This document shows, one piece after another, positions 4,129 to 21,129 of a DNA stretch of 29,603 bases. Source of the stretch: an uncultured virus (IMG/VR IMGVR_UViG_3300033145_003180) (taxonomy: Duplodnaviria; Heunggongvirae; Uroviricota; Caudoviricetes); the IMG/VR virus record IMGVR_UViG_3300033145_003180. One strand, given 5' to 3'. Every line of letters starts with the position of its first letter. Position 1 is the stretch's first letter. The position numbers and the translations under genes are program-made. The notes under the pieces are model-generated. The model saw only the letters and a list, made by a program, of their open reading frames with translations. It ran no database searches and was not told where the DNA came from.

Positions 4129-4449
4129 TTATTTTCCAGGAACACCAAATCTTTTATATTCCTCGGTGAGTTTTTCCCAGTCCTTCCCTTCAGTCTTTGC
4201 CTCTCGTACAGATGGAAACACATCACTGAACATATGAGCCTTATCGTGGTTTTTTATCTTTGCATTAAATATATCAAGATAAATATCATCCTTCTGTTTT
4301 GTGATATTCATATCATATCCCTTTGATAATCGTTGCCATGAGTTTTTCCTAATTTTACGCCAGACACCATCACGAAGTGGTATGCATTTTCCTTTGACTC
4401 TTTTATATCCAATTTTACAGTACCTTTTACATCCAGCTTTTTTAGACAT
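4129..4449 (-). CDS. tagged hypothetical protein
   Basis: MSKKAGCKRY-CKIGYKRVKGKC tag. Confidence 0.8.
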   Translation of the reverse strand: MSKKAGCKRYCKIGYKRVKGKCIPLRDGVWRKIRKNSWQRLSKGYDMNITKQKDDIYLDIFNAKIKNHDKAHMFSDVFPSVREAKTEGKDWEKLTEEYKRFGVPGK

Positions 4450-5096: not shown

Positions 5097-5435
5097 TTAA
5101 GCTTCCTCAATAATTCTTCTTTTTAATGTTGTCATATCTCCTCGTTTAATCATATTTCTGGCCCCACCTAATTTACTATCAGGAATGGACCAATAACCAC
5201 TTGGAGATTTTTTATAAATCACATATCCTTTATAATCACCAGTTACTGCTATGCCAGGGATTTTGCTATTTCTATGCCAATCACCCCATCCATCGCTTTT
5301 GTAAGCAAAAAAACCAATGTCTTTCATTTCTTTATATCCGCGTTTTGCCTTTATCGGTCTAAACAATTCAGTTTTTTTAACACATTTATTATTAAAACGA
5401 ATATGCCCTTTACCGCAACCTGATTTTTTTGCCAT
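5097..5435 (-). CDS. tagged hypothetical protein
   Basis: ATG at 5435 after GGTGA; MAKKSG-CGKGHIRFNNKC tag. Confidence 0.8.
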   Translation of the reverse strand: MAKKSGCGKGHIRFNNKCVKKTELFRPIKAKRGYKEMKDIGFFAYKSDGWGDWHRNSKIPGIAVTGDYKGYVIYKKSPSGYWSIPDSKLGGARNMIKRGDMTTLKRRIIEEA

Positions 5436-5440
5436 ATCTT

Positions 5441-5746
5441 TCACCCTAAATGTTTTTCGATAAATGATGCTCTGTTCTCTGGGGAAATCAAAGCAAAATT
5501 TCCACCTGATTTGATATTTAATGAACGCAACGCAATCCGTTCACGATCTGTGAAATTACCAAAGTCACCGCTACCACTAATTTCTACCCAACCCCAAGCA
5601 GTACCTTGACCATTACGAACAGAAACAGTTTTTGTTTTACCCTTGACAATTTTACGGATTGTAGAAATTTGTTGCTTAGTATCCATAGGAGTACATTTAT
5701 CCTTTATCTTTACTTCACCCCATGTGCAACCACTTTTTTTAGCCAT
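5441..5746 (-). CDS. tagged hypothetical protein, first gene of the operon
   Basis: ATG at 5746 gives MAKKSG-CTWGEVKIKDKC; the ORF-track extension to 5848 overlaps the promoter. Confidence 0.8.
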   Translation of the reverse strand: MAKKSGCTWGEVKIKDKCTPMDTKQQISTIRKIVKGKTKTVSVRNGQGTAWGWVEISGSGDFGNFTDRERIALRSLNIKSGGNFALISPENRASFIEKHLG

Positions 5747-5776
5747 GACACCAATAACACAAAATAATAACAGTTC

Positions 5777-5804
5777 TTTTAAAGTTATCCAGGAAATATT
5801 TCCG
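5777..5804 (-). promoter_or_regulatory. palindromic operator plus TATA promoter of the tagged operon
   Basis: Minus strand CGGAAATATTTCC-TGGATAAC-TTTAAAA, about 30 nt upstream of ATG 5746; recurs at 18997-19025 and 17719-17750. Confidence 0.7.
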
Positions 5805-5856
5805 ATAAATATCAAAATTGATTTTATCGCCATAAAATTAAAAATCAATAGAAAAA

Positions 5857-6195
5857 TGACGGCTTCCGCAAAAAATGATGGCTTTTATGCACAGTTTCTG
5901 ACCTTTTTCATTAGAAGTAATGAAGGCTTTGACGGCTTTAAAAATAGGTAGGGCACCATGCAGGCTTGACGGCTTGACGTTGCCTTTATAATTATATTAA
6001 TAGATCTAATAGTAAATTTTTATTATTGCCATAATAGATGTATTTATAACTCCAGCTTAAGGTCAGCTAGCCCCAGCTATTAAATATTAACGATTAACAT
6101 AAAGGAAAAAATTAGTCGTCAAAGCCGTCAGCACCCCCGTTGAAAGTGTGCATAAAAGCCTTCATAAACCAGTCATATTTTTTTATAAGCCGTCA
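5857..6195. other. putative replication origin (inverted iteron clusters around an AT-rich core)
   Basis: TGA(C/A/T)GGCT at 5857, 5876, 5921, 5930, 5967 (+) and 6123, 6157, 6188 (-); 23-bp inverted repeat 5876-5898 / 6142-6164 with 2 mismatches; AT-rich centre ~5985-6050. Confidence 0.65.
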
Positions 6196-6430
6196 TCCTT
6201 TAAACCCATCAAATATTCTTTGTAATTCCATCAACCGACTTATCGTTCTTTTATTATAAACAACCCATCTACCGACACTCAATCGTTTAACTTCTATCTT
6301 CATCTTCTTGAGGGCGTATCCTATTTTTTGGCAATTTTTAAAAAATGTATCGACTGGATCATCAACTGATCCAATATCTAATAGGTTAACAATTTCACCA
6401 ATTGATATTTTCTTTTGTACCCCACTAGTC
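6193..6430 (-). pseudogene. 3' half (winged-helix domain) of the interrupted HNH-wH gene
   Basis: In frame with 15315-15618 across the TSD; QKIGYALKKM..KRLSVG resembles QKLGYILKNM..KHKSIG of the helicase C-terminus. Confidence 0.8.
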
Positions 6431-6477
6431 GGTACTGTAAAATCTGAGTATGGCAAATCTAGTGTGTAAAATTTAGT
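6431..6477 (+). repeat. left terminal inverted repeat
   Basis: GGTACTGTAAAATCTGAGTATGGCAAATCTAGTGTGTAAAATTTAGT. Confidence 0.9.
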
Positions 6478-6491
6478 ATGATATAGTTCTA

Positions 6492-7001
6492 CTATCTCAA
6501 TAAAAAGATAAAAAATAAAATTAAAAGTGTGCTCCATACAACAGTAATAACAGATATATATTGGAAATCGGAAAAATATTTTTCGGGATGATAAGCACTA
6601 ATGCTCTCCGGTTTATTAATTTCTTCAAAATAATGGAACCAACCACAATATAATGCACTTATCACAGATATTGAAAATAAAATAGACATAAATATTAGCG
6701 AATATTTAGCGGAAATAAAACAAAGAAAATATGTTGATAAAAATAAAAAAGCAAAGAAAAAAAATTCTAATTTCTTACCAACCTTCTCTTTATTCTCTCT
6801 ATTAAAGTCCCGTATCCATTTAGCAATAGATTTCCATATCACAACAATAGATGAGTTTACCAAGAAAAAATACACTACCCATAATCCCCAATTTTTAAGT
6901 TCATAATATTTAATAATTAATATGGTCCAAGCTCCTATAAAAAAAAGAAATAATCCAAAAGCCAGTATTAATTCTAATTTTCTTTTATTAAGATTAATCA
7001 T
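6492..7001 (-). CDS. multi-pass membrane protein
   Basis: About 5 hydrophobic segments; very AT-rich. Confidence 0.65.
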   Translation of the reverse strand: MINLNKRKLELILAFGLFLFFIGAWTILIIKYYELKNWGLWVVYFFLVNSSIVVIWKSIAKWIRDFNRENKEKVGKKLEFFFFAFLFLSTYFLCFISAKYSLIFMSILFSISVISALYCGWFHYFEEINKPESISAYHPEKYFSDFQYISVITVVWSTLLILFFIFLLR

Positions 7002-7149
7002 ATTTTTAATATTATTTCTTTATATAATAATCTATCGTTATTTTTATATTAATTAATACTTATTTCTTCTTTTATCCCTCATCATTAGTTTAATATTTTT
7101 GTCAAATCTAAGATGGCATATGTTTTTAAAAACATAAATGTTGGTACTA

Positions 7150-7234
7150 TTGGTCTCCCTTTAGCGTTTGTCACCAACTTACGCAAGTAGACTACTTTGA
7201 CAACAGGAGTTTTCTATCAAAAAAGGGAGACCAA
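7150..7234. repeat. stem-loop / inverted repeat
   Basis: TTGGTCTCCCTTT (7150-7162) pairs with AAAGGGAGACCAA (7222-7234); inner TTGTCA/TGACAA. Confidence 0.6.
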
Positions 7235-7244
7235 AAAATACATT

Positions 7245-7652
7245 TTATTTTTCTTCTTCAATTTCTACCTTACACCATTGCATTCCAAATTTCTTAGATA
7301 AATGAATAGGTTTTTTCCATTTTTTTGCGTTCTTTAAAACCCAAATATACAAGTTTTTATTTTTATCAACATGGGGAATTAAATGATTTGGATAATATTT
7401 AAGATAATTGATTCCACCAAGTTCTTTTAATTTTACTTTGATTTCATTTGATTTTACTTGAATAACTTTAGTTAGAATTACTGAACCAATAATCTGAGAT
7501 TTATAATGTATTTTTATATCCAGCCCATTCAATTGTGCATTTCTATACCAAATTTTATCAATACTTCGTGTTGAAAGAATGCCAATCCTGCCTCCGATAT
7601 AAGAGTTAAAAGACCTGACAAGATATTTCATATTTCCTTCAACAATAGCCAT
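7245..7652 (-). CDS. ASCH/PUA-like domain protein
   Basis: GRIGI.ST, IIGSV.L..V, YIWVLKNAKKWKKPI....G.QW pattern; N-terminus possibly eroded. Confidence 0.6.
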   Translation of the reverse strand: MAIVEGNMKYLVRSFNSYIGGRIGILSTRSIDKIWYRNAQLNGLDIKIHYKSQIIGSVILTKVIQVKSNEIKVKLKELGGINYLKYYPNHLIPHVDKNKNLYIWVLKNAKKWKKPIHLSKKFGMQWCKVEIEEEK

Positions 7653-7899
7653 GCAGGGAATATCCGCTTATCGAGCATGGGTTTATCTGCCTTAGAATTG
7701 AAGAAATATTAAGAGAAGAGGGGGGTAATGATTGGATGGACGACTGGCTGTATAAGCTATATCCTAATCATTACAAAAAACTGCCATATGAATCATGATG
7801 TAAATTACATGTGTTTTATGGATTAAACCTTCCTCAATCTTAGTTCTAAGATATGTTTTTAAAGAAATAGAGGTTGTGAAATTGTAGTTTGAGATGTAA

Positions 7900-9375
7900 A
7901 TGAAAAATCAATTCGTATACATTATTTGCCTATTGTTCATTATCCTCCCTATTTTATTTCAAACTGTCTCTTCGGAAACGATAAATGAGTATAGTCCCAG
8001 TAACAATCCCCCCGATGAATTATATTGGGATATTGTATACTGGAATGAATTAATAAGAGTTGATGATGAAGGAAATGTGAATATCTCTGTTAGAATAATG
8101 TTCGAATTTTACAATAAAACTTCGAATATCTGGCACGTTTCAATTAATCTTGGTTCAAATATTACAAAGCCTGTCCTCCATAAAAATAATCACAGCGGAT
8201 TTATCGATGAGGCAGAATTTGTTTATGAAAAACATGGGACATTTCTTGTACTATCTTTTAACTCCTCAATCAGTAGTGTTTATATGATTTATAGTCTAGG
8301 TTTTTCTTATCAAGTGGAGACTCCGTTAATTGTTGAAAAAGTAAGCGCATTTTATGAAACATTAAATCGATTTAGATTGAGTAACCCAACTTCATTCTTT
8401 TCGAGTTTTTATCCCCAATACATCAATTATTACATAGCCCTGCCTAGTAGGGCATCTATTCACAGACACAATGTTGATTTAACCGAAAATGTGGTAATTG
8501 ATCAAAATCAGTTTTCTCTACTATATTTCGATCCGGATTTTCTTTATCCCGATACTGATGATTCCTTCTTAGAAGTCCCAGATATTGAAGAATATCATAT
8601 CTCCAAAATAACGATAAATAAAACTTTTGTTGATAATAAGATATTCATCGAATACACAACACCGAACGACATTATTGGCATTTTGATAATTTTCGCTGCA
8701 ATATTTAGCATTCTGGGTTTCTTAGCAACAATATTTAAAAGAAGAAATAATAGGTTTCAATGGCATTGGAGGAGAGAAAAAATGAAAATTTCTTGGGAAA
8801 AATTACAAAACGCCTTTCTATTAATTGGGTTAGTGACTTTAGCCACTGGTGTTCTTTTTATATTAACCGGCGTATTCTTTAACATAGTTAATCTTATAGA
8901 TGCTGCAAGATGGCTTGCATCTATTGGTATCGCTTTTATCTCTACTGGTATCGCTTGTCGTTCGGTTATGGTTTCGAATCAATCAGATGAAAAAATGATA
9001 GCTAATGCAAACGAATCTTTTCTCAAGATTGTGGATACTTTTGAAGACAAAAGAATACAACTTTTACAACATCCAGATTGGCTTGGTATCGAGGGTACTA
9101 TCTGGAAATGTCAAACTTATTTAGACAGAGCGATTAAGTTAAAAAAATCATCCAAGATTGCTATTGATAACCAAAATAAGTTATTCTACCAATTTGACCT
9201 TCTTATTAATAGAACAGGATTGCCTTGGGGTACTGATGTTATTAAACCGAATGATTTCAAAAATATTCATAAAATGGAATCTAAATTTTTAGAACTAGAC
9301 TTGACAGATGAATCTAAAGAGAAACTAAAAAGAATTAAAGAATATATGAAGAAATTTGAGATTAAAAAGAGATGA
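7900..9375 (+). CDS. exported/membrane protein (possibly two fused genes)
   Basis: Signal peptide, extracellular domain, TM helices; internal GGAGG..ATG near 8782. Confidence 0.65.
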   Translation: MKNQFVYIICLLFIILPILFQTVSSETINEYSPSNNPPDELYWDIVYWNELIRVDDEGNVNISVRIMFEFYNKTSNIWHVSINLGSNITKPVLHKNNHSGFIDEAEFVYEKHGTFLVLSFNSSISSVYMIYSLGFSYQVETPLIVEKVSAFYETLNRFRLSNPTSFFSSFYPQYINYYIALPSRASIHRHNVDLTENVVIDQNQFSLLYFDPDFLYPDTDDSFLEVPDIEEYHISKITINKTFVDNKIFIEYTTPNDIIGILIIFAAIFSILGFLATIFKRRNNRFQWHWRREKMKISWEKLQNAFLLIGLVTLATGVLFILTGVFFNIVNLIDAARWLASIGIAFISTGIACRSVMVSNQSDEKMIANANESFLKIVDTFEDKRIQLLQHPDWLGIEGTIWKCQTYLDRAIKLKKSSKIAIDNQNKLFYQFDLLINRTGLPWGTDVIKPNDFKNIHKMESKFLELDLTDESKEKLKRIKEYMKKFEIKKR

Positions 9376-9865
9376 CATCCTGCTTTATTGCACTATTACG
9401 GTTGCTATTCTCTTCTTCCTTTCCTTTTTTATCAACCATACTACCAATGCATAATTATTAGCTTTGTTAAAGATTTTGGTTCACTTATAATCTGACTTAA
9501 AAAGCCAAATTTTTCTCCTGTTGGAAAATATGCAATAATGACTTAAAGTGGTGTGGTTCTCCTTAAACTAGGATTTTGCAGATAGAAACAGGGTAAAAAA
9601 GTATTGTTAATTTGAGTTAGCAAAAATTTTATTAAACATTAAAGTATGACATCCCATTGAATAATTTAACGACTAGGAGAGATATGGGATGCTATATGGG
9701 GAAAAGACAGATAATAGTTGGGGGAAACAATTAAATAGGGATAATTATATAAATAATAAAAACAGTAATTATATATATGATTTCATCAATCATTACAATG
9801 AAAATGGGGAGGCGTTTTGATGTTTATGCTTAATAACAAAATAAAAGACAAAAAGGAGATAAACA

Positions 9866-10444
9866 ATGTTTCCTTGTAATAATGATTTCTCCGGTCAATA
9901 TCAGATGGGTAAATCTCCGCGTTATCAAAGAGAAAACACTTCACAAAATTTTAGAGGTGATTTTACGACAGAACCTGATCCTGTTGAAAAATGGATACAA
10001 CCAGATATTGTCGCTAGCATCTCCCCATGGGCAACTCAACCTGTTGTTATTGATTTAACACAATTTAAGCCTGAATTTTTATCAAATATTGGAAATAAAA
10101 CGAAAGAAACATTACTCCTACCGGAAAGCATTGCTAAAAATGTGGACGAACAATTGCAATTAAAGATTTCCAATGATGAGTATTTAAGAAGAGTTTTGGT
10201 AAAATCCATTGAGGAAATTGAAAAATACTTGAAAAAAACGAGGAAAAAATACAAGATAAAAGCCTCTGTTTGGCACGATATTGAAGATGCCGAATGGGAA
10301 GAAAATACTATTTTTGTAAAAGTTGAATGTAAGGACAATAAAGAAAAAAGAGAAATTTGGGATAGGATTGATGAAATTGTAGGAAAACAAGAAGAACATG
10401 AAGTCGTAATCTTAACCAATGTTGATAAATATGAATTTTCGTAA
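9866..10444 (+). CDS. hypothetical protein, putative partner of the HEPN protein
   Basis: GGAGA RBS; overlaps the start of the HEPN gene. Confidence 0.65.
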   Translation: MFPCNNDFSGQYQMGKSPRYQRENTSQNFRGDFTTEPDPVEKWIQPDIVASISPWATQPVVIDLTQFKPEFLSNIGNKTKETLLLPESIAKNVDEQLQLKISNDEYLRRVLVKSIEEIEKYLKKTRKKYKIKASVWHDIEDAEWEENTIFVKVECKDNKEKREIWDRIDEIVGKQEEHEVVILTNVDKYEFS

Positions 10445-10835
10445 TTTTCTGGGTTTGGGTAAAGAACTTATTGAAGGAGAAAATATTCCAGAAGTAAAAA
10501 TTAGAACTTCTATGGGTAGAGTATACAACTATGTTTTTCATTACATGAGAGAAAATCATAGAGGGCATCCAGATAGTAATTTCGGGAATGGAAAAGGTGA
10601 TCATAGCGAAGCGATCAATTTTTTAAAAAGATTGGAAGAGAGGCGTTTAGCATCTACCTTACATTCCTTAACTCATAAGAGGAATAGGGCAGAGTATGAT
10701 TTAAACCTCTCTTTTAAAAAGCAGAATGCGATTGATTATATAGAAGATGCGGAAGATTTTGTTAAAAAAATGGATAGTGGAAATGTAAAAACAAGACGTG
10801 TTAAAGCAAAGAGAAAATTTGCAAGGAGAAAATAA
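10431..10835 (+). CDS. HEPN domain protein
   Basis: RTSMGRVYNYVFH (cf. RSAISRAYYAAFH), DH..AI..L, L..KRNRAEY motifs. Confidence 0.75.
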   Translation: MNFRNFLGLGKELIEGENIPEVKIRTSMGRVYNYVFHYMRENHRGHPDSNFGNGKGDHSEAINFLKRLEERRLASTLHSLTHKRNRAEYDLNLSFKKQNAIDYIEDAEDFVKKMDSGNVKTRRVKAKRKFARRK

Positions 10836-10836
10836 T

Positions 10837-11280
10837 ATGTTGAAGGATTATGAATATGCGGATTTTGAGACAAAAGAGGAGAATTGGAATGAATATAAAA
10901 TAGAGGATGGTACTACAATACGTGTAAAATTTATAATGGTTAAGATTCTTAGAAGGGAAATTACCGGAGGTCATGATTTTAGATTTAACAGCAGTAAAGT
11001 GATTAGTGTTAATGCTCCGTTAGAAAAAAGTGGGAAACCATCTGATGGGAATTACTCCCCTGAAGAACTTTTTGATTCTATCACCGAAACGGATATGAAA
11101 TTTAAACAAGTAAACGAAGAGAAATGGAACAAGTATCTTCTTAAAGATGGAACTAAAATAATGGCTAAACTAGCGATTACGGATATTGGAAAAACGGACA
11201 AGTATGATGAGTTTGGCGATCCAATATATAATATCCAATCACAGCCATTATTTAAGGCAGTTCCGCCAAAAAAGCGTTAA
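10837..11280 (+). CDS. hypothetical protein with internal domain duplication
   Basis: EENWNEYKIEDGTTIRVK vs EEKWNKYLLKDGTKIMAK; ATG 10837 after GGAGA. Confidence 0.75.
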   Translation: MLKDYEYADFETKEENWNEYKIEDGTTIRVKFIMVKILRREITGGHDFRFNSSKVISVNAPLEKSGKPSDGNYSPEELFDSITETDMKFKQVNEEKWNKYLLKDGTKIMAKLAITDIGKTDKYDEFGDPIYNIQSQPLFKAVPPKKR

Positions 11281-11317
11281 TTGATAAATGAAATTTGTTC
11301 AGTGGTAAATATCAAAG

Positions 11318-11464
11318 TTAGTTTACTTTTTTTATTCTAAGTTCATTATTGCCTATGGGCTCAATGCTAAACTTATCATTTGGCTTAAAGCCGTATAAGT
11401 CACATACCTGCTTTGGAATTGTGATTATATAGCTGCCGTTGATCTCACGTAGTTTACGTTCCAT
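11318..11464 (-). CDS. AbrB/MazE/SpoVT family DNA-binding protein (48 aa, not in ORF track)
   Basis: MERKLREINGSYIITIPKQVCDLYGFKPNDKFSIEPIGNNELRIKKVN. Confidence 0.8.
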   Translation of the reverse strand: MERKLREINGSYIITIPKQVCDLYGFKPNDKFSIEPIGNNELRIKKVN

Positions 11465-11498
11465 ATAGAAAACGATATAGAAAACGATACATAAAAAG
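11463..11498. repeat. 12-bp tandem repeat upstream of the AbrB gene (possible operator)
   Basis: ATATAGAAAACG x2 plus degenerate ATACATAAAAAG. Confidence 0.55.
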
Positions 11499-11552
11499 GT
11501 ATGTTTTTGGTAATAAATATCACTTATAAAAATATATAACTCTTGTAAACAA

Positions 11553-11828
11553 ATGTTTATGAATCAACAATTGCAAGGTCATGAAGGATATTTAAGCCGT
11601 TCTTATAAACGATATACAGAGAGGGAGCTGGCAGAAGCTTACCAGAAAGGAGTTGGTGCTCTACTTGTTTTTGAAACACCAGTAGATTTAAGCGATGTTC
11701 ACGAAGAAATAGCGGGGTTAAAGGATGAAAACCAGAAGTTAAAGAAAGATGTCGATAGTCTAAGGATGGAATTATTGGAAGTCAAATTCAAACAGATCCA
11801 GGAAATGCAAAAAAAGGAACAGAAGTAA
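11553..11828 (+). pseudogene. C-terminal remnant of a tyrosine integrase
   Basis: QGHEGYLSRSYKRYT..EL.EAY (GH...Y catalytic end) plus coiled-coil tail; N-terminal catalytic region missing. Confidence 0.65.
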
Positions 11829-11871
11829 AATAGCAAATCAAAGAAAACCTATTAAATTTCTATTAAAACCC

Positions 11872-12087
11872 CTAATCATTGCCTCCTTTATCTGGTGGTT
11901 CCCAATAAAGCTCTCCTTTTGAATCAAAAAGAATTTTGCCTGCATCTGTCCCCATCTTTCCAAAATTTTCAAGTTCAGATGCGGTCAGTTTTCTCGTGTA
12001 CTTAGTAATCTTTGATCCCAAAGCACCCTCAATCATATCTTGGATATCCTCAAAAGATGCATATACGATACCAGATACATAGACCAA
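11872..12087 (-). CDS. short hypothetical protein or gene remnant
   Basis: 71-aa ORF downstream of the RM gene; weak start. Confidence 0.4.
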   Translation of the reverse strand: MVYVSGIVYASFEDIQDMIEGALGSKITKYTRKLTASELENFGKMGTDAGKILFDSKGELYWEPPDKGGND

Positions 12088-12127
12088 GGTTGCATTAACA
12101 CTAAACTATGTGTGATTTTACCCAAAT

Positions 12128-14689
12128 TTAATCACCAGAAAACAAACGTTTAAGAATATCCCAAGAAGAAACACTTTTCACAACTTGTTCAATATAATCT
12201 TCATCAATATTATCATTTTCATCCATTGGGATAAAAATCTTTATTTTGTCAATTTTATTTTTATATGCTTTTCTACCATAAGAAAAACGCCATTTTAAAC
12301 GATTTAGTTCAGAAATCAAGTACATTATCGTTGTAAATTTATATTCCTCTTTTGGAAAACAAACCAATACATTATCTTTCGCACAGAATTTATAATAGTG
12401 ATAGAACGTGCTTAACGGCATACCATCTGAAGCAATAGTTATACTCTTATCATAGGTCGTTTTAATAGCTACATCCTTATTTCTTTTCTTAACAAATATC
12501 TGATCTTCAACATCAACATAAGTTTCAACACCATCATTTATAGAAGAACAGGAAATTAATGGAATATCGCCATCATCTAAACTACCACTAACATGATAAA
12601 AACCCGTATCTATCGGTGTTTCAAAAATATCTGAAATTGGAATTTCTTTAACTTCAATATTACTTGTTTTTCCCTTAGCATCAGAAGAAAAAATATTTTC
12701 CTTATCAATGATATTTTCCCTGAAATCCTTTTCTTTATCAGAATTGATAAGGTATGAAAGGAGATTTCGTAAACAATAATCTATGTCTAGTTTAATTTTT
12801 TCTTCAGATGGTTTTTCTTCATCAAGATATACTTCTGGCACAAGTTCCAACATTTTATCGTTGAAATCTATCGGACATGCCTTTTGAAGTTCTTGAATAT
12901 TATCTACATTAATAGTTGGATTGATTAAAAATGATGTTAATACGCCTCTTATTTTCTCAAAATCATTTTCTATTTTTGAATTAGGCAATCTTTTACCTTT
13001 ACTTTTTAAAAATCCATCATTCAATGCTCTAATCCATAATACATTTTGTTTTTTATCATGAGGCACACCTTTTTTTATAAATATCCCAACACTATGAACC
13101 CCTATTGGATAAAAAAGGTCAAAAGGAAAAGTAATTCCAGATAGTAATGTATGTTTTTTCAGTAATTCCTTTCTCCATGTCAAAAAACCTGCTGATTTGA
13201 CCAAATTTGAATAAGGTAATATCGAAAACAGGATACCGCCATCTTGCATTTCATCTAAACCATAATCAACAAATTGATATGCTTTTTCGCTTTCATCTTT
13301 AAGGGCAAATGGTGGGTTCATTAATACTTTTGTAACGGCATCAATTTCTTTATCATCATTCTTCTCTTTTTGTTTTTTCCTTATCTTATTTTTATCCTCC
13401 TTCTTGATATATTTAGCAGATGAATCGGTTTTTAACAGGCTGTTCTTAAAACAATTACCTTCAATAATGTTGTTTTTACCATCACCTCTAAAAATCATAT
13501 TCACTATTGCTAATGAAACAACCTCATCATCTTGTTCTATTCCAAATAAATTCTTTTGTTTAAACCTATTCAACTGTTGCATATTTGCATTTTTTCTTAC
13601 GTGGTCAAATGATGCAACAAGAAATCCACCTGTACCACAAGCAGGATCAAGAATAATATCATTATGTGTAACATTCATTACTTCAACTGCAAATTTCGTA
13701 ATATGTCGAGGCGTTAACACAATACCTATCTCTTTTGCACCATTCCCATATTTCAAAAAAACTTCATAGAATTTTCCAAGTATATCAGTCCCTGATTCCA
13801 TTGCGGATCGGATGTTTATACTTCTAAGTTGTTGAATAGTATCTACTAATGCTTTTCTATGTTTATGATGATTATCTGATTTTGTTGGTAATGCTAATTT
13901 AATAAAATCATAAAACCTTGGTTTTCCCTGTTTATCTAAAACATTGCTCACTCTTGTATTTATATCATTGATTAAAACGCTTGGAGATGAATCAATGATT
14001 AAGGGATTTTCATCAATCAATGATAATAGCAATGCAGACATCACTCTTGCTCGTTTATTCTTATTTATTGCTCCTCTATGCAATATTTCATTTATTTTTT
14101 CTGCTTTTTGAAGAAACAGTCTTTGAAATCGGTCATCAAAAGGTAACTCTTCAATATCAGGTTTATTATTTTCAATAATTGATAATAACTGTTCTTGAAT
14201 TAGAAAACCAGAAATATTTCTCTTGTTTATGGTTACTGGATGAAAATGTTTTCCATCGAAATATTCAGTTTCAATAATATAACCATCATAATCATTCCCT
14301 GCAACACCCGAAACAAAAGCAACTTGGATTTGATCGCTTTTATTGATTTTTTCCGCATATTGTTCTTTCGCCTCTTTTAATGCCTGATCTTTTTGCCTAT
14401 GTTCCTTTTTTGATTCAATAACCCATAACTTTGTTTCTGTTACTTTAACAATAGCCTCTGGTCTTTCTTTATCAAGAAATTTTTTAATCTCTTCATTTTC
14501 AAGGCATTCGTTTTGTGTATAAACTTGTCCTTCTGGATCACGTTCTGGATTTTTTGTATTCCATCCAAGATTCCTTAATTCATCTCTGATAAAAATATAG
14601 GCGTTGACTTCTGTTTTTCTTGGTTTAGGTAATTTGTTTTTTTTGTTTTGAATTGATTTGCCATTCTGTTTTTTTTGAGTTTCTACCAA
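12128..14689 (-). CDS. fused restriction-modification enzyme (Type IIG/BcgI-like: nuclease, N6-MTase, specificity domain)
   Basis: N-terminal PE...IESKK nuclease-like motif; LTPRHI, ILDPACGTGGFL, MNPPF; C-terminal HsdS-like TRD (IPLISCSS..DG, RFSYGRK). Confidence 0.88.
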   Translation of the reverse strand: MVETQKKQNGKSIQNKKNKLPKPRKTEVNAYIFIRDELRNLGWNTKNPERDPEGQVYTQNECLENEEIKKFLDKERPEAIVKVTETKLWVIESKKEHRQKDQALKEAKEQYAEKINKSDQIQVAFVSGVAGNDYDGYIIETEYFDGKHFHPVTINKRNISGFLIQEQLLSIIENNKPDIEELPFDDRFQRLFLQKAEKINEILHRGAINKNKRARVMSALLLSLIDENPLIIDSSPSVLINDINTRVSNVLDKQGKPRFYDFIKLALPTKSDNHHKHRKALVDTIQQLRSINIRSAMESGTDILGKFYEVFLKYGNGAKEIGIVLTPRHITKFAVEVMNVTHNDIILDPACGTGGFLVASFDHVRKNANMQQLNRFKQKNLFGIEQDDEVVSLAIVNMIFRGDGKNNIIEGNCFKNSLLKTDSSAKYIKKEDKNKIRKKQKEKNDDKEIDAVTKVLMNPPFALKDESEKAYQFVDYGLDEMQDGGILFSILPYSNLVKSAGFLTWRKELLKKHTLLSGITFPFDLFYPIGVHSVGIFIKKGVPHDKKQNVLWIRALNDGFLKSKGKRLPNSKIENDFEKIRGVLTSFLINPTINVDNIQELQKACPIDFNDKMLELVPEVYLDEEKPSEEKIKLDIDYCLRNLLSYLINSDKEKDFRENIIDKENIFSSDAKGKTSNIEVKEIPISDIFETPIDTGFYHVSGSLDDGDIPLISCSSINDGVETYVDVEDQIFVKKRNKDVAIKTTYDKSITIASDGMPLSTFYHYYKFCAKDNVLVCFPKEEYKFTTIMYLISELNRLKWRFSYGRKAYKNKIDKIKIFIPMDENDNIDEDYIEQVVKSVSSWDILKRLFSGD

Positions 14690-14691
14690 AA

Positions 14692-14847
14692 TTACATCCC
14701 ACCATTTTTCTTGATATAATCCTTAATTAATTCTTCAAGAATTGTACTGGCATAGCGATTTCCATGTTTCCCAACAACTATAGAACAAAACTTATTCCAC
14801 AACTCCTTATCTACACTAATAGAAGTATTTATCTTTCCATCCGACAT
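14692..14847 (-). CDS. ribbon-helix-helix regulator upstream of the RM gene
   Basis: ATG 14847 after GGTGAG; NTSISVDKELWNKF...S.ILEELIKDYI. Confidence 0.7.
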   Translation of the reverse strand: MSDGKINTSISVDKELWNKFCSIVVGKHGNRYASTILEELIKDYIKKNGGM

Positions 14848-15020
14848 CTCACCACTAACCCCACTTGCCAATACTTGTAATTGATCGTTCATTTAATTAC
14901 CTTTTTACCCATATGTCTTTATACCGCTATATATTTATAAATATATGCCGATATGTTTATATACCCATAAGACATACCTATTATGTTTTGAATTTTGAGT
15001 TAATCTGTTCTTTATCCATT

Positions 15021-15242
15021 TCAACCAAAAAGCTCTTCAAACCATCCTTTTTTTGTTTTCTTTGGTTTAGGTTTATACGACCCAAGAATTTGTCCTTTTC
15101 TTCCTTGTGAAGTTGTCCGTTCCCTCAATTTATAATATTTTCTTGTTTTAGGATTATAAATTCTCTTTTTTACCATTATCAAAAAATTCATAGCTTTTAA
15201 TATGATATTTAGTTTTCGATTTATTTGATTTAATTTTACCAT
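15021..15242 (-). CDS. small basic hypothetical protein
   Basis: ATG after GGTGG; Lys/Arg-rich; true start may be the internal MVKKRIYNP. Confidence 0.5.
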   Translation of the reverse strand: MVKLNQINRKLNIILKAMNFLIMVKKRIYNPKTRKYYKLRERTTSQGRKGQILGSYKPKPKKTKKGWFEELFG

Positions 15243-15267
15243 AGCCGAACCACCTTTGATACACCCC

Positions 15268-15314
15268 ACTAAATTTTACATACTAGATTTGCCACACTCA
15301 AATTTTACAGTACC
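15268..15314 (-). repeat. right terminal inverted repeat
   Basis: Reverse complement GGTACTGTAAAATTTGAGTGTGGCAAATCTAGTATGTAAAATTTAGT. Confidence 0.9.
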
Positions 15315-15618
15315 CACTAGTCAATGGTGTATTTGAAAATAAAATATCATGTATCTTTCTATGCAATCCATCAACTGGGAAATTAATATTGTTGATAAAC
15401 CCCACTGACTTGAATGTTTTGTCCATCTGGTCATAGCTTTCTCTTATTGCTGAAACAATATCTGTTAGATCTCCCAATATGTATTTGTGGATTTTTTTAT
15501 GACATTTTTGGCAGAGTGGCACGGTTTTATTCCATTTAGGAATTATACTTCTCGGTACTGTGTGGTGATCTTCAATTGCATCCATATCCTCTTCTTTACA
15601 CATTATACAACGTTTCAT
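15315..15618 (-). pseudogene. 5' half (HNH endonuclease domain) of the interrupted HNH-wH gene
   Basis: CIMC...EDHHTVP...LCQKCHKKIH; currently terminates inside the TIR at 15298. Confidence 0.82.
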
Positions 15619-15659
15619 AATACATCCACCATTATTATAAGGAGAACACCCCATATTTT

Positions 15660-17045
15660 TTAAAAGTTATTACTTAATTTATACCTGCGATACAAATAAC
15701 CAAGGCGCTTTCCATTCTCCCGCCCAAGTGAAAGCACCTTTCCAATACTCTTATGTTTTGTTTTCAACCCCATATTTTTCAGAATATACCCAAGTTTCTG
15801 CTTATCTTTCTTATCTTCCCACCCTAGGCCTTCACAAATATCAGTTACCTTGATATCATCTGGTGCATCATCCAATGTTGCACACTCCCTGTAATTTTTG
15901 ATCACCCTTAATACTTCATATTGAATAGTTCCCTGCAGTTCCTCTTCCGCATCCTTTTCCTTTTCCTGTGCGAATTTTATAACATCGTCTACTTCCTGAC
16001 CGATGTGTTTTCCTGTTGCGATTATGCTTTCATATACCTCTCTCGTCCGGCCTGTTAAAATAAATGAACGCCCTAGATCTGGTGGGTCACCTGTTTTATA
16101 TTTATAGTTCAGAAGCATGGATCGTATTATGGCAAGTTCCTCCTCAAGATATTCCATCTTTGCTGCAGGTGGGATTGATTTCTCCATGAAAACGTCTATT
16201 CCCCTACTTACAAGTGCAGGATCAAAAGATTTCTCACCCGCAAATGCTTTGAACCCAAAATTATGCGTGGCGATAACTTCCTTTTGGTTATTTAGATCCG
16301 AACTTATATAGACAGATCCTTTTTTATAGCTCTGTTTTATAAAATCCAGTAATTGCGCTCCGCTTTCATTTCTAGGGTTCAGTCTGTTGTTCGCCTCATC
16401 TATTGTAATGCTGATATTCCAGTATTCGCTCAATCTGGATAATGCCGAGAAACTTACAATCGCAGCTGGAACAGAACGATATGCCAACGCCTGTATGACA
16501 TTTAACGCTCGAGTTTTTCCACTGCCTATAATCCCTCTAAAAACTGGAAAACCAACTGTCTCCCAGCATTCCTGTTTCCATGTACTTATAATCCAGAGAG
16601 TAAAAATTTTGTAGAGTATCTCCTCTGGAAAAATCACAAGTTCATGCATAACATTGATTATTGTATCATATATTTCAAAAGGATCCACTTCGCTCTCTTC
16701 CCACACCGGGAGTTTCCATATATCCGTTTTTATGATTCCTGTTAATGCTTTAAAAGTCGCTGTCCTCCCACACCCGCCTTGTTCTTCATAACATACTGCG
16801 GGTTCGCCTGGGTTCGATTCAATAATACAATTACATCTTTGGCATTTCCAAAGTCCCTGTTTTTTTGTATAAAAGACGGTTTCTGTCTTTGGCGGTAATG
16901 GATCAGTCACTACGTCTTTTACATCCCTTCCGCTATCTTGAGCAACCTCTCTTTCTTTTATAAAAAGCCAACATGGTTCACCATTGAAAATTACTGGTTC
17001 TTTAATCTCCTTCACTTCTTTAATGGGTTGAAGATTAGTAGACAT
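15660..17045 (-). CDS. P-loop ATPase, putative replicative helicase/Rep with zinc finger and C-terminal winged helix
   Basis: CQRC...C...C zinc motif; Walker A GIIGSGKT; Walker B ITIDEA; ALVSR Arg finger; wH tail. Confidence 0.75.
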   Translation of the reverse strand: MSTNLQPIKEVKEIKEPVIFNGEPCWLFIKEREVAQDSGRDVKDVVTDPLPPKTETVFYTKKQGLWKCQRCNCIIESNPGEPAVCYEEQGGCGRTATFKALTGIIKTDIWKLPVWEESEVDPFEIYDTIINVMHELVIFPEEILYKIFTLWIISTWKQECWETVGFPVFRGIIGSGKTRALNVIQALAYRSVPAAIVSFSALSRLSEYWNISITIDEANNRLNPRNESGAQLLDFIKQSYKKGSVYISSDLNNQKEVIATHNFGFKAFAGEKSFDPALVSRGIDVFMEKSIPPAAKMEYLEEELAIIRSMLLNYKYKTGDPPDLGRSFILTGRTREVYESIIATGKHIGQEVDDVIKFAQEKEKDAEEELQGTIQYEVLRVIKNYRECATLDDAPDDIKVTDICEGLGWEDKKDKQKLGYILKNMGLKTKHKSIGKVLSLGRENGKRLGYLYRRYKLSNNF

Positions 17046-19789: not shown

Positions 19790-19957
19790 ATGAAAAAAAT
19801 GGAACAAGAATCCAAATTAGAAGATATTTGTTTAAAATGTGAGTTTGATCTTGGTGAGCATTGTGAAGAAGCGGAGTTCAGTGATACTGTCCAGACTGAA
19901 AATGGAAGATGTCTTGAATGTAAAAAATTTAAATTAAAGAAGACTAATAGAAGATGA
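19790..19957 (+). CDS. small Cys-rich protein (55 aa, not in ORF track)
   Basis: GGAGA RBS; CLKC...C...CLEC; ATGA overlap with next gene. Confidence 0.6.
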   Translation: MKKMEQESKLEDICLKCEFDLGEHCEEAEFSDTVQTENGRCLECKKFKLKKTNRR

Positions 19958-21129
19958 AAATAGAACATAAAATAATAATAAAAAACATACCTGATGAATT
20001 TATTAGATGCAGAGAATGTGATAGACCATTCAAAAAGATAACTATCTCTCATTTGAATAGTAGACATGGTACAACTATGGAATTGTATCGTAAGAAACAT
20101 CCAGATGCGCCATTAGTGTGTGCTGAAGTACTATTAAAAAGTAGTAAAACAATGAAAAAAAAGTTTGAATCAGATCCTAAATGTTTTGAATATCTTCAAG
20201 AAGCAATTACACCTGAAAAAAGGAAAGAAATACTTAAAAAAGCATTATCAAAAGAGTCGATAAAAAAAAATGTAGATACGATGAGACTCATCCGTGAAAA
20301 AATACCCGAAGTTCAGGAAAACTATCATAAAGCAATGGAAAAAGTGTACGCCGATAGAACATATGATGATGTGTATTTAATTGAACAATATAATATGGTT
20401 AAAAATAAATTGGGGCATGTTCCTTCAACATTAGAAATTAAAGAACATACGGGTATTAGTGTAGGACCATATACTCGGCGTTGGGGCTCTTTTAATGATT
20501 TTGTTTTGAAACAAGGTGATATTCCAAAAAAAATGTATCAGATAACTAAGAAGGAATATATCGAAGATATAAAACGAGTATGGAATGAACTTGGCCATCA
20601 ACCAACTATAAAGGAATATGATAGTCATGGAAGATTTCATAGTAGTACATCACATAACAAATTACATATGCCTTGGGCTGATTTATTGATTAGTCTTGGT
20701 GGTGTTAATCTTGGTTTTCTAGTGGGAGGATACAATAAAATATCCAGAGAGAAATTAGAAAAAGAATACGTCAAAGTTAGAAAAATGATCAATTCTCCAT
20801 TAACCCAAGATGATATGATTAATACTGGTAAATATTGTTGTGCTCCTTATGCTAGAGAATGGGGGGCATTTTCACAAGCAAGAAATTATTTAGAGAGGAA
20901 ATATTTTAATAAACAATACAATGAAGAAGAATTTATGAAAAAACTCATGTCGGAAAGAATATCATATTCTCATAGTAAGAAAAACAAAATTTTGTTACAA
21001 AAAGCGATAGAACTACATAATGATGGGTTTAATCAATATGAAATTGGAGGGAAAATAGGAGTTAGCCAAGCGACAATATCTAATTGGTTGAAAAACTTGC
21101 GATCTATGATGAAGATGCACAGTAATTGA
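19954..21129 (+). CDS. multi-domain DNA-binding protein (MucR-like zinc finger, homing-endonuclease-associated repeats, HTH)
   Basis: CRECDRPFKKITISHL..RHG; repeats LGH.P(S/T)..E...Y.R.WGSF; C-terminal QYEIG.KIGVSQATISNW HTH. Confidence 0.75.
   Translation: MKIEHKIIIKNIPDEFIRCRECDRPFKKITISHLNSRHGTTMELYRKKHPDAPLVCAEVLLKSSKTMKKKFESDPKCFEYLQEAITPEKRKEILKKALSKESIKKNVDTMRLIREKIPEVQENYHKAMEKVYADRTYDDVYLIEQYNMVKNKLGHVPSTLEIKEHTGISVGPYTRRWGSFNDFVLKQGDIPKKMYQITKKEYIEDIKRVWNELGHQPTIKEYDSHGRFHSSTSHNKLHMPWADLLISLGGVNLGFLVGGYNKISREKLEKEYVKVRKMINSPLTQDDMINTGKYCCAPYAREWGAFSQARNYLERKYFNKQYNEEEFMKKLMSERISYSHSKKNKILLQKAIELHNDGFNQYEIGGKIGVSQATISNWLKNLRSMMKMHSN

What the first reader, a model, noticed from the sequence alone, without database searches (positions are those of the whole stretch)
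6193..15618. HNH-winged-helix gene split in two by the insertion; halves rejoin in frame
Seen: ORF 15618-15298 ends ...NTPLTSG|YCKI and ORF 6537-6193 contains ...VPTSG|VQKKISIG..., both reading TSG in the same frame over the duplicated CCCACTAGTC. Removing the insert plus one repeat gives a 177-aa protein with an N-terminal HNH nuclease and a C-terminal domain resembling the helicase's wH tail (QKIGYALKKM/QKLGYILKNM; KRLSVG/KHKSIG). Both halves lack internal stops. Inference: an origin-targeted nickase/nuclease (initiator, resolvase or homing-like element) that is either recently inactivated or switchable by precise excision.
Basis: partly seen in the sequence, partly recalled or inferred. Interest (0 to 1): 0.75.

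Follow-up and report, generated by a model that had tools for sequence, protein, structure and literature searches.

The report
Transposon-split HNH nuclease gene beside origin
A small DNA-cutting enzyme gene that sits next to the replication origin of an uncultured virus- or plasmid-like element has been cut in two by an 8.9-kb jumping element, which is an ordinary gene knockout, although both the enzyme family and the jumping element are undescribed.

Summary
An 8,884-bp element (6431-15314) lies inside a minus-strand gene. It has 47-bp terminal inverted repeats (44/47 identical) and an 8-bp target duplication, CACTAGTC.

Joining 15618..15315 to 6422..6193 gives one open 177-codon frame. Intact 166-199-aa homologues exist, and both halves align collinearly with them. 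Against P0003 (180 aa) the N half gives E 3e-43 and the C half E 7e-17.

The N half is a zinc-ribbon HNH domain. The C half models as a winged-helix-like domain. That domain resembles the C-terminal tail of the adjacent replicative helicase-like NTPase, both here and in relative L005. In 2 of 2 loci seen, the gene abuts an origin-like array of inverted iterons around an AT-rich centre.

That the halves rejoin in frame follows from any insertion with a target duplication, so it is no evidence of a switch. No empty site was found.

The insert carries a type IIG restriction-modification gene and a MazE/AbrB-type gene, but no recognisable transposase.

Verdict: a recent, ordinary transposon knockout of a rare nuclease family that is probably origin-associated. 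The function is inferred, not shown.

The parts
15298..15618 (-). N-terminal half of the split gene. It encodes the HNH nuclease domain and a helical linker, then ends with 4 codons and a stop that come from the right inverted repeat. The start is most likely the ATG at 15618; an alternative in-frame ATG lies at 15654.
   Evidence: Pfam HNH PF01844, E 1.1e-4, 22.7 bits against a cut-off of 21.4. 58/106 identical to residues 1-105 of P0003, E 3e-43. Homologues begin at the residue aligned to 15618. A GGTGGA stretch lies a few bases upstream of that ATG (sequence).
6193..6429 (-). C-terminal half of the split gene: the winged-helix-like domain, from T-S-G to the stop. It now forms the 3' part of a 114-codon ORF (6193-6537) whose first 39 codons come from the left end of the insert.
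   Evidence: 32/71 identical to residues 102-172 of P0003, E 7e-17. Collinear in alignment A1. AF2 model of this half: pLDDT 78.5, topology strand-helix-helix-hairpin-helix. 15/43 identical to the helicase tail.
6423..6430 (.). Left copy of the 8-bp target-site duplication, CACTAGTC.
15315..15322 (.). Right copy of the 8-bp target-site duplication, CACTAGTC.
   Evidence: A contig in run X4 diverges exactly after 15314.
6431..6477 (+). Left terminal inverted repeat, 47 bp, tip GGTACTGTAAAAT. It is built from about three 14-bp sub-repeats.
   Evidence: A contig in run X1 begins to match at 6431 (table 5c).
15268..15314 (-). Right terminal inverted repeat, 47 bp, 44/47 identical to the left one.
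   Evidence: In run X4, 15258-15314 is flanked by unlike DNA on both sides (table 7).
6431..15314 (.). The inserted mobile element, 8,884 bp, GC 0.305 against 0.356 and 0.360 in the flanks. No recognisable transposase or recombinase.
   Evidence: All 11 ORFs of at least 60 aa inside it were scanned with Pfam, PHROGs, PADLOC and NCBIfam.
12128..14689 (-). Cargo: an 853-aa fused restriction-methylase-specificity protein, type IIG-like.
   Evidence: Pfam N6_Mtase 8e-31 and Methylase_S 7.6e-7. PADLOC REase_MTase_IIG 2.8e-41.
11318..11464 (-). Cargo: a 48-aa MazE/AbrB-type protein. The DNA here is present on many contigs of the four metagenome runs.
   Evidence: Pfam PF04014, 1.6e-6, 28.4 bits against a cut-off of 24.7. 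Depth and contig counts at 11364-11478.
5857..6195 (.). Origin-like region directly 3' of the split gene. GACGGCTT occurs five times (three on +, two on -) around an AT-rich centre, and the last copy overlaps the gene's stop codon.
   Evidence: 5 matches against 0.16 expected. Inverted pairs I1 and I3-I6.
15660..17045 (-). Upstream neighbour: a 461-aa helicase-like P-loop NTPase of the replication module. Its C-terminal tail is related to the C half of the split gene.
   Evidence: ESM Atlas structure rows: DUF3631 and Toprim-fused clusters, TM 0.57-0.75. 22.5% identity over 90% of its length to the C-terminal half of an 849-aa Haladaptatus plasmid protein, which carries an NrS-1 polymerase helix-bundle domain in its N-terminal half. 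Tail similarity.

Best explanation
Shown: a 177-codon gene directly downstream of the replicative helicase-like gene was interrupted by transposition of an 8,884-bp element. The element has 47-bp terminal inverted repeats and made an 8-bp target duplication. It landed in the low-confidence linker between the gene's two domains.

The gene belongs to a rare family known only from metagenomes, with about 10 full-length members of 166-199 aa. The N terminus is a zinc-ribbon HNH nuclease domain. The C terminus is a winged-helix-like domain that is a paralogue of the C-terminal tail of the cognate helicase.

Inferred (about 0.35-0.4): the winged-helix domain tethers the HNH domain to the iterons of the adjacent origin-like region, where it nicks or cuts DNA. 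This could serve initiation, processing of replication intermediates, or interference with related replicons.

The insertion separates the nuclease from its DNA-targeting domain, so it most likely inactivates the protein. The event is recent: the duplication is perfect, both halves are still open, and all invariant residues are kept. Reversion could happen only by rare, unprogrammed precise excision between the 8-bp repeats.

The insert is a cargo transposon. It carries a type IIG restriction-modification gene, a MazE/AbrB-type gene, membrane proteins and ORFs of unknown function. It has no recognisable transposase, so it is either mobilised in trans or encodes an undescribed one.
For: Insertion anatomy:
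- Inverted repeats of 54 nt at 93% complementarity, or 44/47 identical when read as element ends.
- Perfect 8-bp direct repeat.
- GC of 0.305 against 0.356 and 0.360 in the flanks.
- Contigs from other samples match up to 15314, or start matching at 6431, and continue with unlike DNA (tables 5c and 7).
- Insert segment 6528-7003 is almost identical in four runs of three studies (1 difference in 246, 151, 151 and 179 bases; records 1, 2, 19, 26). Flank segments differ by 5-10% (for example 24/241 and 24/264; records 16 and 25) (table 8).

One gene:
- The joined frame is open.
- The HMMER scan of 1.84 billion representatives gave 54 hits at E <= 1e-3. Eight are 166-199 aa and align from their residue 1 (P0003-P0009, P0011).
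- Both halves align collinearly with them: N half E 3e-43, C half E 7e-17.
- P0003 is intact on contig L005.

Domains:
- Pfam HNH above its cut-off.
- The family profile hits the HNH domain of an IscB structure, E 2.9e-4, and McrA, E 0.036.
- Invariant CxxC...HH...CxxCH...H residues.
- AF2 model of P0003, pLDDT 80.5, with a beta-hairpin plus helix at 15-72 and a helix-helix-hairpin-helix domain at 110-178.
- VIA best Z 8.1 (rmsd 2.4, 84 aligned). About 40 of the 50 rows shown are titled as MarR/SarA/ArsR/CRP/PadR/TubR-type DNA-binding proteins, over model residues about 76-180.
- The insertion point corresponds to P0003 residues 102-104, where pLDDT is below 50.

Link to replication:
- Winged-helix domain against own helicase tail: E 4e-5 in the window, E 3e-6 in L005.
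- Origin-like inverted iteron arrays abut the gene in 2 of 2 loci.
- Evidence that the neighbour is a helicase.
Against: No biochemical or in-silico test of DNA binding or cleavage was possible.

Only two genomic contexts could be seen. In L005 the gene is separated from the helicase by four methyltransferase-like ORFs, and the origin-like array lies upstream rather than downstream. The position is therefore not fixed, as expected for a mobile homing-type gene.

The iterons of the two elements differ, yet the winged-helix domains of the two HNH proteins are closer to each other (score 111) than to their own helicase tails (65 and 81). Cross-element scores are 73 and 48, so there is no co-variation signal.

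The fold matches are statistically weak. Foldseek's best is E 0.03 for the whole model and 0.11 for the window's own C half. A VIA Z near 8 is the range that the tool says can reflect a common arrangement.

No transposase was found, so the mobility mechanism of the insert is unexplained.
Confidence: 0.85

Rival explanations
1. The HNH + winged-helix gene is a free-standing, selfish homing-type endonuclease. Its DNA-binding module happens to derive from the helicase tail, it has no role in replication, and its place next to the origin-like region is incidental. The transposon has simply knocked out a dispensable selfish gene.
For: Small HNH proteins with a C-terminal DNA-binding module are the usual build of phage homing endonucleases (established knowledge, recalled). 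The gene's position differs between the two related elements. The family is rare and patchy: 8 full-length hits in 1.84 billion representatives, and 6 proteins at E <= 1e-5 among 3,181 candidates of the profile search. Loss by insertion is evidently tolerated on an assembled 91.6-kb contig. No winged-helix/helicase co-variation was seen.
Against: In both loci the gene directly abuts an inverted-iteron, AT-rich, origin-like region. In both, its DNA-binding domain is related to the tail of the cognate helicase. No interrupted or adjacent target gene typical of homing was seen.
Confidence: 0.3
2. The split is functional rather than inactivating. The HNH-only product (106 aa plus 4 residues from the transposon end) and a winged-helix-only product (the 114-aa ORF that starts inside the left end of the insert) are both made. 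They act separately, for example the winged-helix fragment as an origin-binding competitor or regulator.
For: The insertion lies in the interdomain linker, so both domains are whole. An ATG at 6537 inside the insert opens a frame that reads through the inverted repeat into the C half. The window's C half alone models as a compact domain, pLDDT 78.5.
Against: There is no expression data. No ribosome-binding or promoter signal was established for the fusion ORF. The open frames are equally well explained by a recent insertion.
Confidence: 0.1
3. The insertion is a programmed, reversible switch. Precise excision of the element restores the nuclease gene on demand.
For: Removal of the insert plus one 8-bp repeat restores an open 177-codon frame. 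Short direct repeats flanking inverted repeats allow rare precise excision of bacterial transposons (established knowledge, recalled).
Against: In-frame restoration is true of every insertion that makes a target duplication, so it carries no information. The 11 insert ORFs include no recombinase, excisionase or transposase. Ordinary cut-and-paste excision would leave the 8-bp duplication and so shift the frame.
Confidence: 0.03
4. The structure is an assembly artefact: a chimeric join of two unrelated metagenome sequences.
For: The contig is a metagenome assembly, and the insert has a different GC content.
Against: A chimera would not produce a perfect 8-bp direct repeat flanking 47-bp inverted repeats, with the two gene halves resuming in the same frame.
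Confidence: 0.02

Closest known systems
Free-standing HNH homing endonucleases of phages (HNH nuclease plus a C-terminal DNA-binding module, for example I-HmuI; recalled, not tested here)
   Same: Small size, an N-terminal HNH with a zinc ribbon, a C-terminal DNA-binding domain, location on a mobile element, and patchy distribution.
   Different: The DNA-binding module is a winged-helix-like domain related to the tail of the neighbouring replicative helicase. The gene abuts origin-like iterons in both loci seen. No hit in 50,697 GenBank phage records. The four HNH hits in IMG/VR (L001-L004) match only the HNH part of the query (residues 3-44 or 4-107). The ORFs read at two of them (L001, L004) are generic phage HNH proteins of a different build.
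HNH domain of IscB/Cas9-type and McrA-type nucleases
   Same: Closest solved sequences to the family profile: an IscB HNH domain at E 2.9e-4 and McrA at E 0.036. NCBIfam guided_IscB at E 2.3e-4, far below its cut-off. The same CxxC...HH...CxxCH pattern.
   Different: Only the roughly 60-residue HNH core is shared. There is no RuvC, RNA-binding or methyl-cytosine-reading domain.
Primase-helicase replication proteins of phages and plasmids whose C-terminal winged helix binds origin iterons (P4 alpha type; DUF3631 / prim-pol-helicase proteins; the origin-binding role is recalled)
   Same: The neighbouring 461-aa NTPase resembles DUF3631-type and Toprim-fused proteins by predicted structure, and the helicase half of a haloarchaeal plasmid prim-pol-helicase. 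Its tail is the paralogue of the C-terminal domain of the split gene.
   Different: Here the tail domain is also found fused to a nuclease on a separate small protein. Origin binding by either protein is untested.
IS6/IS26 family insertion sequences
   Same: 8-bp target duplication and a GG dinucleotide at the element tip. Passages of the review PMC7986276 were read with 'find'.
   Different: IS6 members are about 0.8 kb with 15-20-bp inverted repeats and one DDE transposase. This element is 8.9 kb with 47-bp repeats made of sub-repeats, and no DDE transposase hit. It is not a member.
Non-autonomous cargo transposons (inverted repeats and a target duplication but no transposase, moved in trans)
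   Same: Inverted repeats, a target duplication, passenger defence genes, and a copy of the same end in another DNA context in another sample.
   Different: No autonomous partner is known. The repeat was not found in IMG/VR or in 185,579 species genomes.

Membership tests
HNH endonuclease superfamily (PF01844) | Match to the family profile at or above the curated cut-off. | tested here: met
   N half: 22.7 bits against a cut-off of 21.4, E 1.1e-4. P0003 scores 19.8 bits, just below the cut-off.
HNH endonuclease superfamily (PF01844) | Conserved catalytic and metal-binding His residues and zinc-ribbon Cys pairs on a beta-beta-alpha core. | tested here: met
   C4, C7, H18, H19, C36, C39, H40 and H44 are invariant in 8 of 8 intact members and kept in the window's N half. 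The model has strands 15-19 and 32-36 followed by a helix from 37. Catalysis itself was not tested.
Winged-helix DNA-binding fold | Helix-helix-helix core with a beta-hairpin wing; structural match to solved winged-helix proteins. | tested here: met
   Models: helices 110-116 and 129-142, hairpin 147-156, helix 160-178 in P0003. The same order is seen in the window's own C half. VIA Z 8.1, 8.1 and 7.5 (rmsd 2.4-3.8, 83-84 aligned), with about 40 of 50 rows being MarR/SarA/ArsR/CRP/PadR/TubR-type proteins. Foldseek probability 0.93-0.99 but E >= 0.03, and E >= 0.11 for the C half alone. The statistics are weak and the agreement among hits is good.
Transposon with terminal inverted repeats (DDE-type cut-and-paste or replicative) | Terminal inverted repeats. 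| tested here: met
   47 bp, 44/47 identical.
Transposon with terminal inverted repeats (DDE-type cut-and-paste or replicative) | Target-site duplication of fixed length. | tested here: met
   8/8 CACTAGTC. Only one insertion was seen, so constancy of the length is untested.
Transposon with terminal inverted repeats (DDE-type cut-and-paste or replicative) | Element-encoded transposase. | tested here: not met
   0 of 11 insert ORFs of at least 60 aa match a transposase, integrase or recombinase family in Pfam, PHROGs, PADLOC or NCBIfam. The Atlas search of the 192-aa ORF gave no such lead. A novel transposase cannot be excluded.
IS6/IS26 family | About 0.8 kb, 15-20-bp inverted repeats with a GG tip, 8-bp duplication, single DDE transposase with an H-HTH domain. 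| tested here: not met
   The GG tip and the 8-bp duplication are met. The length (8.9 kb), the repeat length (47 bp) and the transposase are not.
Homing endonuclease (as a way of life) | Presence/absence polymorphism at a cognate target site between otherwise collinear relatives. | tested here: inconclusive
   Only one relative locus (L005) was available. The gene is present in both, at different positions.
Type IIG restriction-modification enzyme (cargo gene 12128-14689) | Single chain with methylase and specificity domains plus a nuclease domain. | tested here: inconclusive
   N6_Mtase and Methylase_S domains and PADLOC REase_MTase_IIG at 2.8e-41 are met. The N-terminal roughly 270 residues have no domain hit; a nuclease motif there is my reading of the sequence only.

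The most novel reading that the evidence does not exclude
HNH + winged-helix proteins are an undescribed class of origin-associated nucleases of uncultured (probably archaeal) viruses and plasmids. They carry a copy of the replicative helicase's iteron-reading winged helix. They use it to nick or cut at the origin, either to start or resolve replication or to destroy the origins of competing related replicons. The 8.9-kb insertion would also represent a new family of defence-carrying transposons whose transposase belongs to no described family or acts only in trans.
Probability: 0.2. Interest if true: 0.7.

Novelty: new variant of a known kind. Interest (0 to 1): 0.45.

Why it matters
Gene disruption by a transposon is routine, and that part needs no new biology.

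Two things are worth keeping:
- A rare, unannotated nuclease family shares its DNA-binding domain with the replicon's helicase and sits against the origin-like region. If it acts at the origin, it would be a new accessory of replication or of replicon competition in poorly known mobile elements from cold-seep and subsurface samples.
- A large transposon with inverted repeats carries a restriction-modification system into a virus- or plasmid-like genome, without any recognisable transposase. It is a lead to a new mobile-element family and to how defence genes travel between such elements.

Tried and rejected
Searches that found nothing:
- The word-index search with the N half found only the window's own protein.
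- No whole genome is held for this window.
- IMG/VR scans with the helicase, the restriction-modification protein, the 491-aa protein and P0005 found no relatives.
- The family alignment found only four loci in IMG/VR that match only the HNH part (L001-L004).
- The genome-contig scan with P0011 found nothing.
- The inverted repeat was not found in IMG/VR with a 29-nt pattern. An 18-nt pattern gave 5 loci that share only the 18-mer: 23-31 of 47 positions, judged chance. It was also not found in genome contigs.
- The helicase and P0003 have no match in GenBank phages.
- Earlier findings of this scan: nothing for this genome, the repeat or P0003.
- Rfam: no family at gathering score in the window. 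No tRNA.
- Paper search for HNH + winged helix + origin of replication + iterons: 0 papers. DUF3631 + helicase: 1 paper, seen as a listing only.

Empty site: four cold-seep or other metagenome runs (X1-X4, Logan contigs, at least 90% likeness) show no contig joining 6430 to 15323. They hold only fragments, so this neither supports nor excludes an empty site. Uncovered parts in those runs are not used as evidence.

Co-variation of the winged-helix domain with the cognate helicase tail: no signal with two elements.

Sub-threshold NCBIfam hits of the restriction-modification protein's specificity domain to metallo-beta-lactamase models (17 bits against cut-offs of 400-550) are noise.

Rows left out of the family alignments:
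- P0002: 4,282 aa with 31 repeated matches to the Cys/His core. Not examined.
- P0010: 92 aa, a fragment.
- P0012: 177 aa, C-terminal part not examined.
- P0056 was added only in alignment A4.

A 13-nt exact copy of the repeat tip at 4412-4424 has no partner and no further similarity. I treat it as unexplained or chance.
Full report
**1. Observation**

The window carries two minus-strand ORFs, 15298-15654 (118 aa) and 6193-6537 (114 aa). Both read T-S-G across the same bases.

Between them lies a block bounded by inverted repeats. The repeat finder gives arms 6424-6477 and 15268-15321, 54 nt long and 93% complementary. Read as element ends, 6431-6477 and the reverse complement of 15268-15314 agree at 44 of 47 positions.

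The direct repeat is best read as 8 bp, CACTAGTC (6423-6430 and 15315-15322). Independent support for the boundary comes from public runs. In run X4 a contig matches 15258-15314 and then continues with unlike DNA on both sides. In X1 a contig begins to match at 6431 (tables 5c and 7).

The element is 8,884 bp, with GC 0.305 against 0.356 and 0.360 in the flanks. A 27-nt inner part of the repeat occurs twice, against 0.00 expected in 100 shuffles.

Joining 15654..15315 with 6422..6193 by coordinates gives 189 codons and one terminal stop, which is 177 codons from the ATG at 15618. Shuffles of either half are open in at most 0.05% of 20,000 trials.

**2. One gene, with intact relatives**

The word-index search found only the window's own protein, on a 91.6-kb contig.

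The exhaustive HMMER scan of 1.84 billion representatives with the N half gave 54 hits at E <= 1e-3 and 11 at E <= 1e-10. Eight of them (P0003-P0009, P0011; 166-199 aa) align from their first residue to query residue 13, which is the ATG at 15618. They extend 65-100 residues beyond the end of the N half.

The C half matches exactly that extension. Against P0003 it is 32/71 identical over residues 102-172, E 7e-17. The N half is 58/106 identical over residues 1-105, E 3e-43. In a joint alignment the two halves are collinear and meet at the T-S-G position. The 13 columns that are invariant in the eight intact proteins are all kept in the window's halves.

A profile search of the 5.8-billion-protein set added only one more member: P0056, 198 aa, labelled by its source as a hypothetical protein of a subsurface metagenome. 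That search gave 6 proteins at E <= 1e-5 among 3,181 candidates. No member carries a functional name. The family is real, rare and unannotated.

**3. Domains**

The N half reaches the Pfam HNH cut-off (22.7 bits against 21.4). The family profile finds the HNH domain of a solved IscB at E 2.9e-4 and McrA at E 0.036.

I could not submit the joined protein, so I folded the closest intact homologue, P0003, using the 8-sequence alignment. The model has mean pLDDT 80.5. It shows a beta-hairpin and long helix at 15-72, then helices 110-116 and 129-142, a hairpin at 147-156 and a helix at 160-178. Residues 102-104, the equivalent of the insertion point, fall below pLDDT 50. The element therefore landed in the interdomain linker.

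- Foldseek against the PDB gave no hit at E <= 1e-3. The best rows (E 0.03-0.05, probability 0.93-0.99) are the Cdt1 C-terminal domain, SSV1 F-93, MarR-type regulators and AF1382.
- VIA-align against 48,161 chains gave Z 8.1 (SarS, SarR) and 7.5 (AF1382). About 40 of the 50 rows are titled as MarR/SarA/ArsR/CRP/PadR/TubR-type DNA-binding proteins, over model residues about 76-180.
- The window's own C half, folded with the family alignment, gives pLDDT 78.5 and the same order of elements. Its Foldseek hits are weak (E >= 0.11) and are again mostly proteins of this kind.

I accept HNH plus a winged-helix-like domain. The fold statistics are modest.

**4. Link to replication**

The C half resembles the last ~45 residues of the adjacent 461-aa protein: 15/43 identical, E 4e-5.

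That neighbour has no Pfam, PHROGs or NCBIfam hit. Other evidence points to a helicase:
- The ESM Atlas places its model next to DUF3631-type and Toprim-fused clusters, TM 0.57-0.75 (a lead only).
- Its only relative among 72,556 plasmids is the C-terminal half of an 849-aa protein of a 17.6-kb Haladaptatus plasmid (22.5% identity over 90% of the query, E 1e-7). The N-terminal half of that protein holds an NrS-1 polymerase helix-bundle domain.

It is therefore the helicase module of a replication protein.

One relative locus could be fetched: L005, an 11,062-bp metagenome contig with P0003 intact at 7750-8292. It shares three things with the window: the helicase (42% identity, E 2e-138), the small ORF before it, and a 295-aa protein (53% identity). 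In L005, four methyltransferase-like ORFs lie between the helicase and the HNH gene. There too, the C-terminal domain of the HNH protein resembles the tail of its own helicase: 17/39 identical, E 3e-6.

Both loci have an origin-like region touching the gene.
- In the window, GACGGCTT occurs five times (three on the + strand, two on the − strand; 0.16 expected) around an AT-rich centre at 5857-6195. The last copy overlaps the stop codon.
- In L005, three direct and three inverted copies of a TTGGGTTAAT-type unit flank an AT-rich centre at 7364-7673, 76 nt before the start. A 13-bp tandem array follows the stop.

So 2 of 2 contexts fit an origin-associated role, but the sample is tiny and the relative position differs. 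A comparison of the four winged-helix-like sequences shows no within-element co-variation.

**5. The insert**

All eleven ORFs of at least 60 aa inside the element were scanned with Pfam, PHROGs, PADLOC and NCBIfam.
- The 853-aa protein is a fused methylase-specificity protein scored as type IIG (N6_Mtase 8e-31; PADLOC 2.8e-41).
- A 48-aa ORF is MazE/AbrB-type.
- The 138-aa ORF matches a PHROG of unknown function.
- None matches a transposase, integrase or recombinase. The Atlas search of the 192-aa ORF gave no such lead.

Each repeat is built of about three 14-bp sub-repeats, as expected for multiple protein-binding sites.

The 8-bp duplication and the GG tip recall IS6/IS26. However, that family's size, its 15-20-bp repeats and its DDE transposase (passages of PMC7986276) are not met.

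The repeat is absent from IMG/VR and from the species-genome collection.

In four metagenome runs of three studies, insert pieces at 6528-7003 are nearly identical to the window: 1 difference in each of 246, 151, 151 and 179 bases. Pieces of the flanking replicon differ by 5-10% (table 8). Together with the repeat seen in another context, this points to a currently mobile element moving between diverged hosts. I read it as a cargo transposon that is moved in trans or encodes an undescribed transposase.

**6.

Shown: a transposition event separated the nuclease domain from its DNA-binding domain.

Inferred: this disables a sequence-directed nuclease that probably acts at or near the origin.

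The idea of a switch has no support. In-frame restoration after removal of the insert and one repeat copy is a necessary consequence of how target duplications arise. The insert encodes no excision function. No empty junction was seen, though the runs available are too fragmentary to count against one.

A separate life for the two halves cannot be excluded. These would be the HNH-only product and a fusion ORF starting at the ATG at 6537.

**7. Context and novelty**

The surrounding DNA looks like a virus, plasmid or integrative element: a tyrosine-integrase-like ORF at 22834-23823, DNA methylases, a beta-helix protein and many ORFs of unknown function. It has no relatives among GenBank phages. 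The nearest runs are cold-seep and sediment metagenomes.

Archaeal leanings are only hints. They come from the Haladaptatus plasmid relative, the Atlas taxa and a TRASH-domain hit in L005.

The disruption itself is ordinary. The nuclease family with a helicase-derived DNA-binding domain, and the transposase-less 8.9-kb element, are new variants of known kinds. My two paper searches found nothing on such a nuclease. That is a narrow search and no proof of absence.

Noticed in passing
window 4412-4424 (-): An exact 13-nt copy of the transposon's tip (14 nt against the right end) lies inside ORF 4129-4449. Three matches were found where 0.07 is expected at <= 1 mismatch. There is no further similarity and no inverted partner. 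It may be chance or a pseudo-end.
   Followed up: partly
window 4129-4449, 5097-5444, 5441-5848 (-): Three neighbouring small ORFs begin with a similar K-K-(A/S)-G-C ... K-C motif, which suggests a paralogous family just beyond the origin-like region. One has a weak bacterial PH-domain hit.
   Followed up: no
window 11364-11478: The DNA of the 48-aa MazE/AbrB-type ORF is covered by many contigs at high summed depth in three of the four runs (10-16 contigs at position 11408 in X1-X3, 1 in X4). This is far more than the rest of the insert, so this small gene or a repeat in it is widespread in these samples.
   Followed up: partly
window 6193-6537 (-): A 114-codon ORF starts inside the left end of the insert and reads through the inverted repeat into the winged-helix half. 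It overlaps the end of the 169-aa membrane-protein ORF (6492-7001) by 46 nt.
   Followed up: no
L005 4632-7355: In the relative, four ORFs with partial C5, N4/N6 and D12 DNA-methylase hits fill the space between the helicase and the HNH gene. An MT-A70 methylase lies at 733-1914. This looks like a variable methylase island.
   Followed up: no
L005 8274-8364: A tandem array of a 13-bp unit (TGATAGTCAGTAC type) starts at the stop codon of the intact HNH gene. The repeat finder gives five overlapping 39-nt copies at 13-nt spacing, so about seven units.
   Followed up: no
window 19954-21129 (+): A 391-aa protein combines a ROS/MucR-type zinc finger, two homing-endonuclease-associated repeats (PF18780, 3.9e-24) and an HTH_23 domain.
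   Followed up: no
window 22834-23823 (+): A tyrosine-integrase-like ORF (phrog_1, 2e-10) lies outside the insert. It suggests that the host element can integrate.
   Followed up: no
protein P0002: A 4,282-aa metagenome protein matches the Cys/His core of the HNH half in 31 separate stretches (E 1.2e-52). It is a giant repeat protein and was not examined.
   Followed up: no
window 10419-10835 (+): The 138-aa cargo ORF matches phrog_5176 (unknown function, 1.6e-10). By eye its K-R-N-R-A-E-Y stretch recalls HEPN-type motifs; this was not tested.
   Followed up: no
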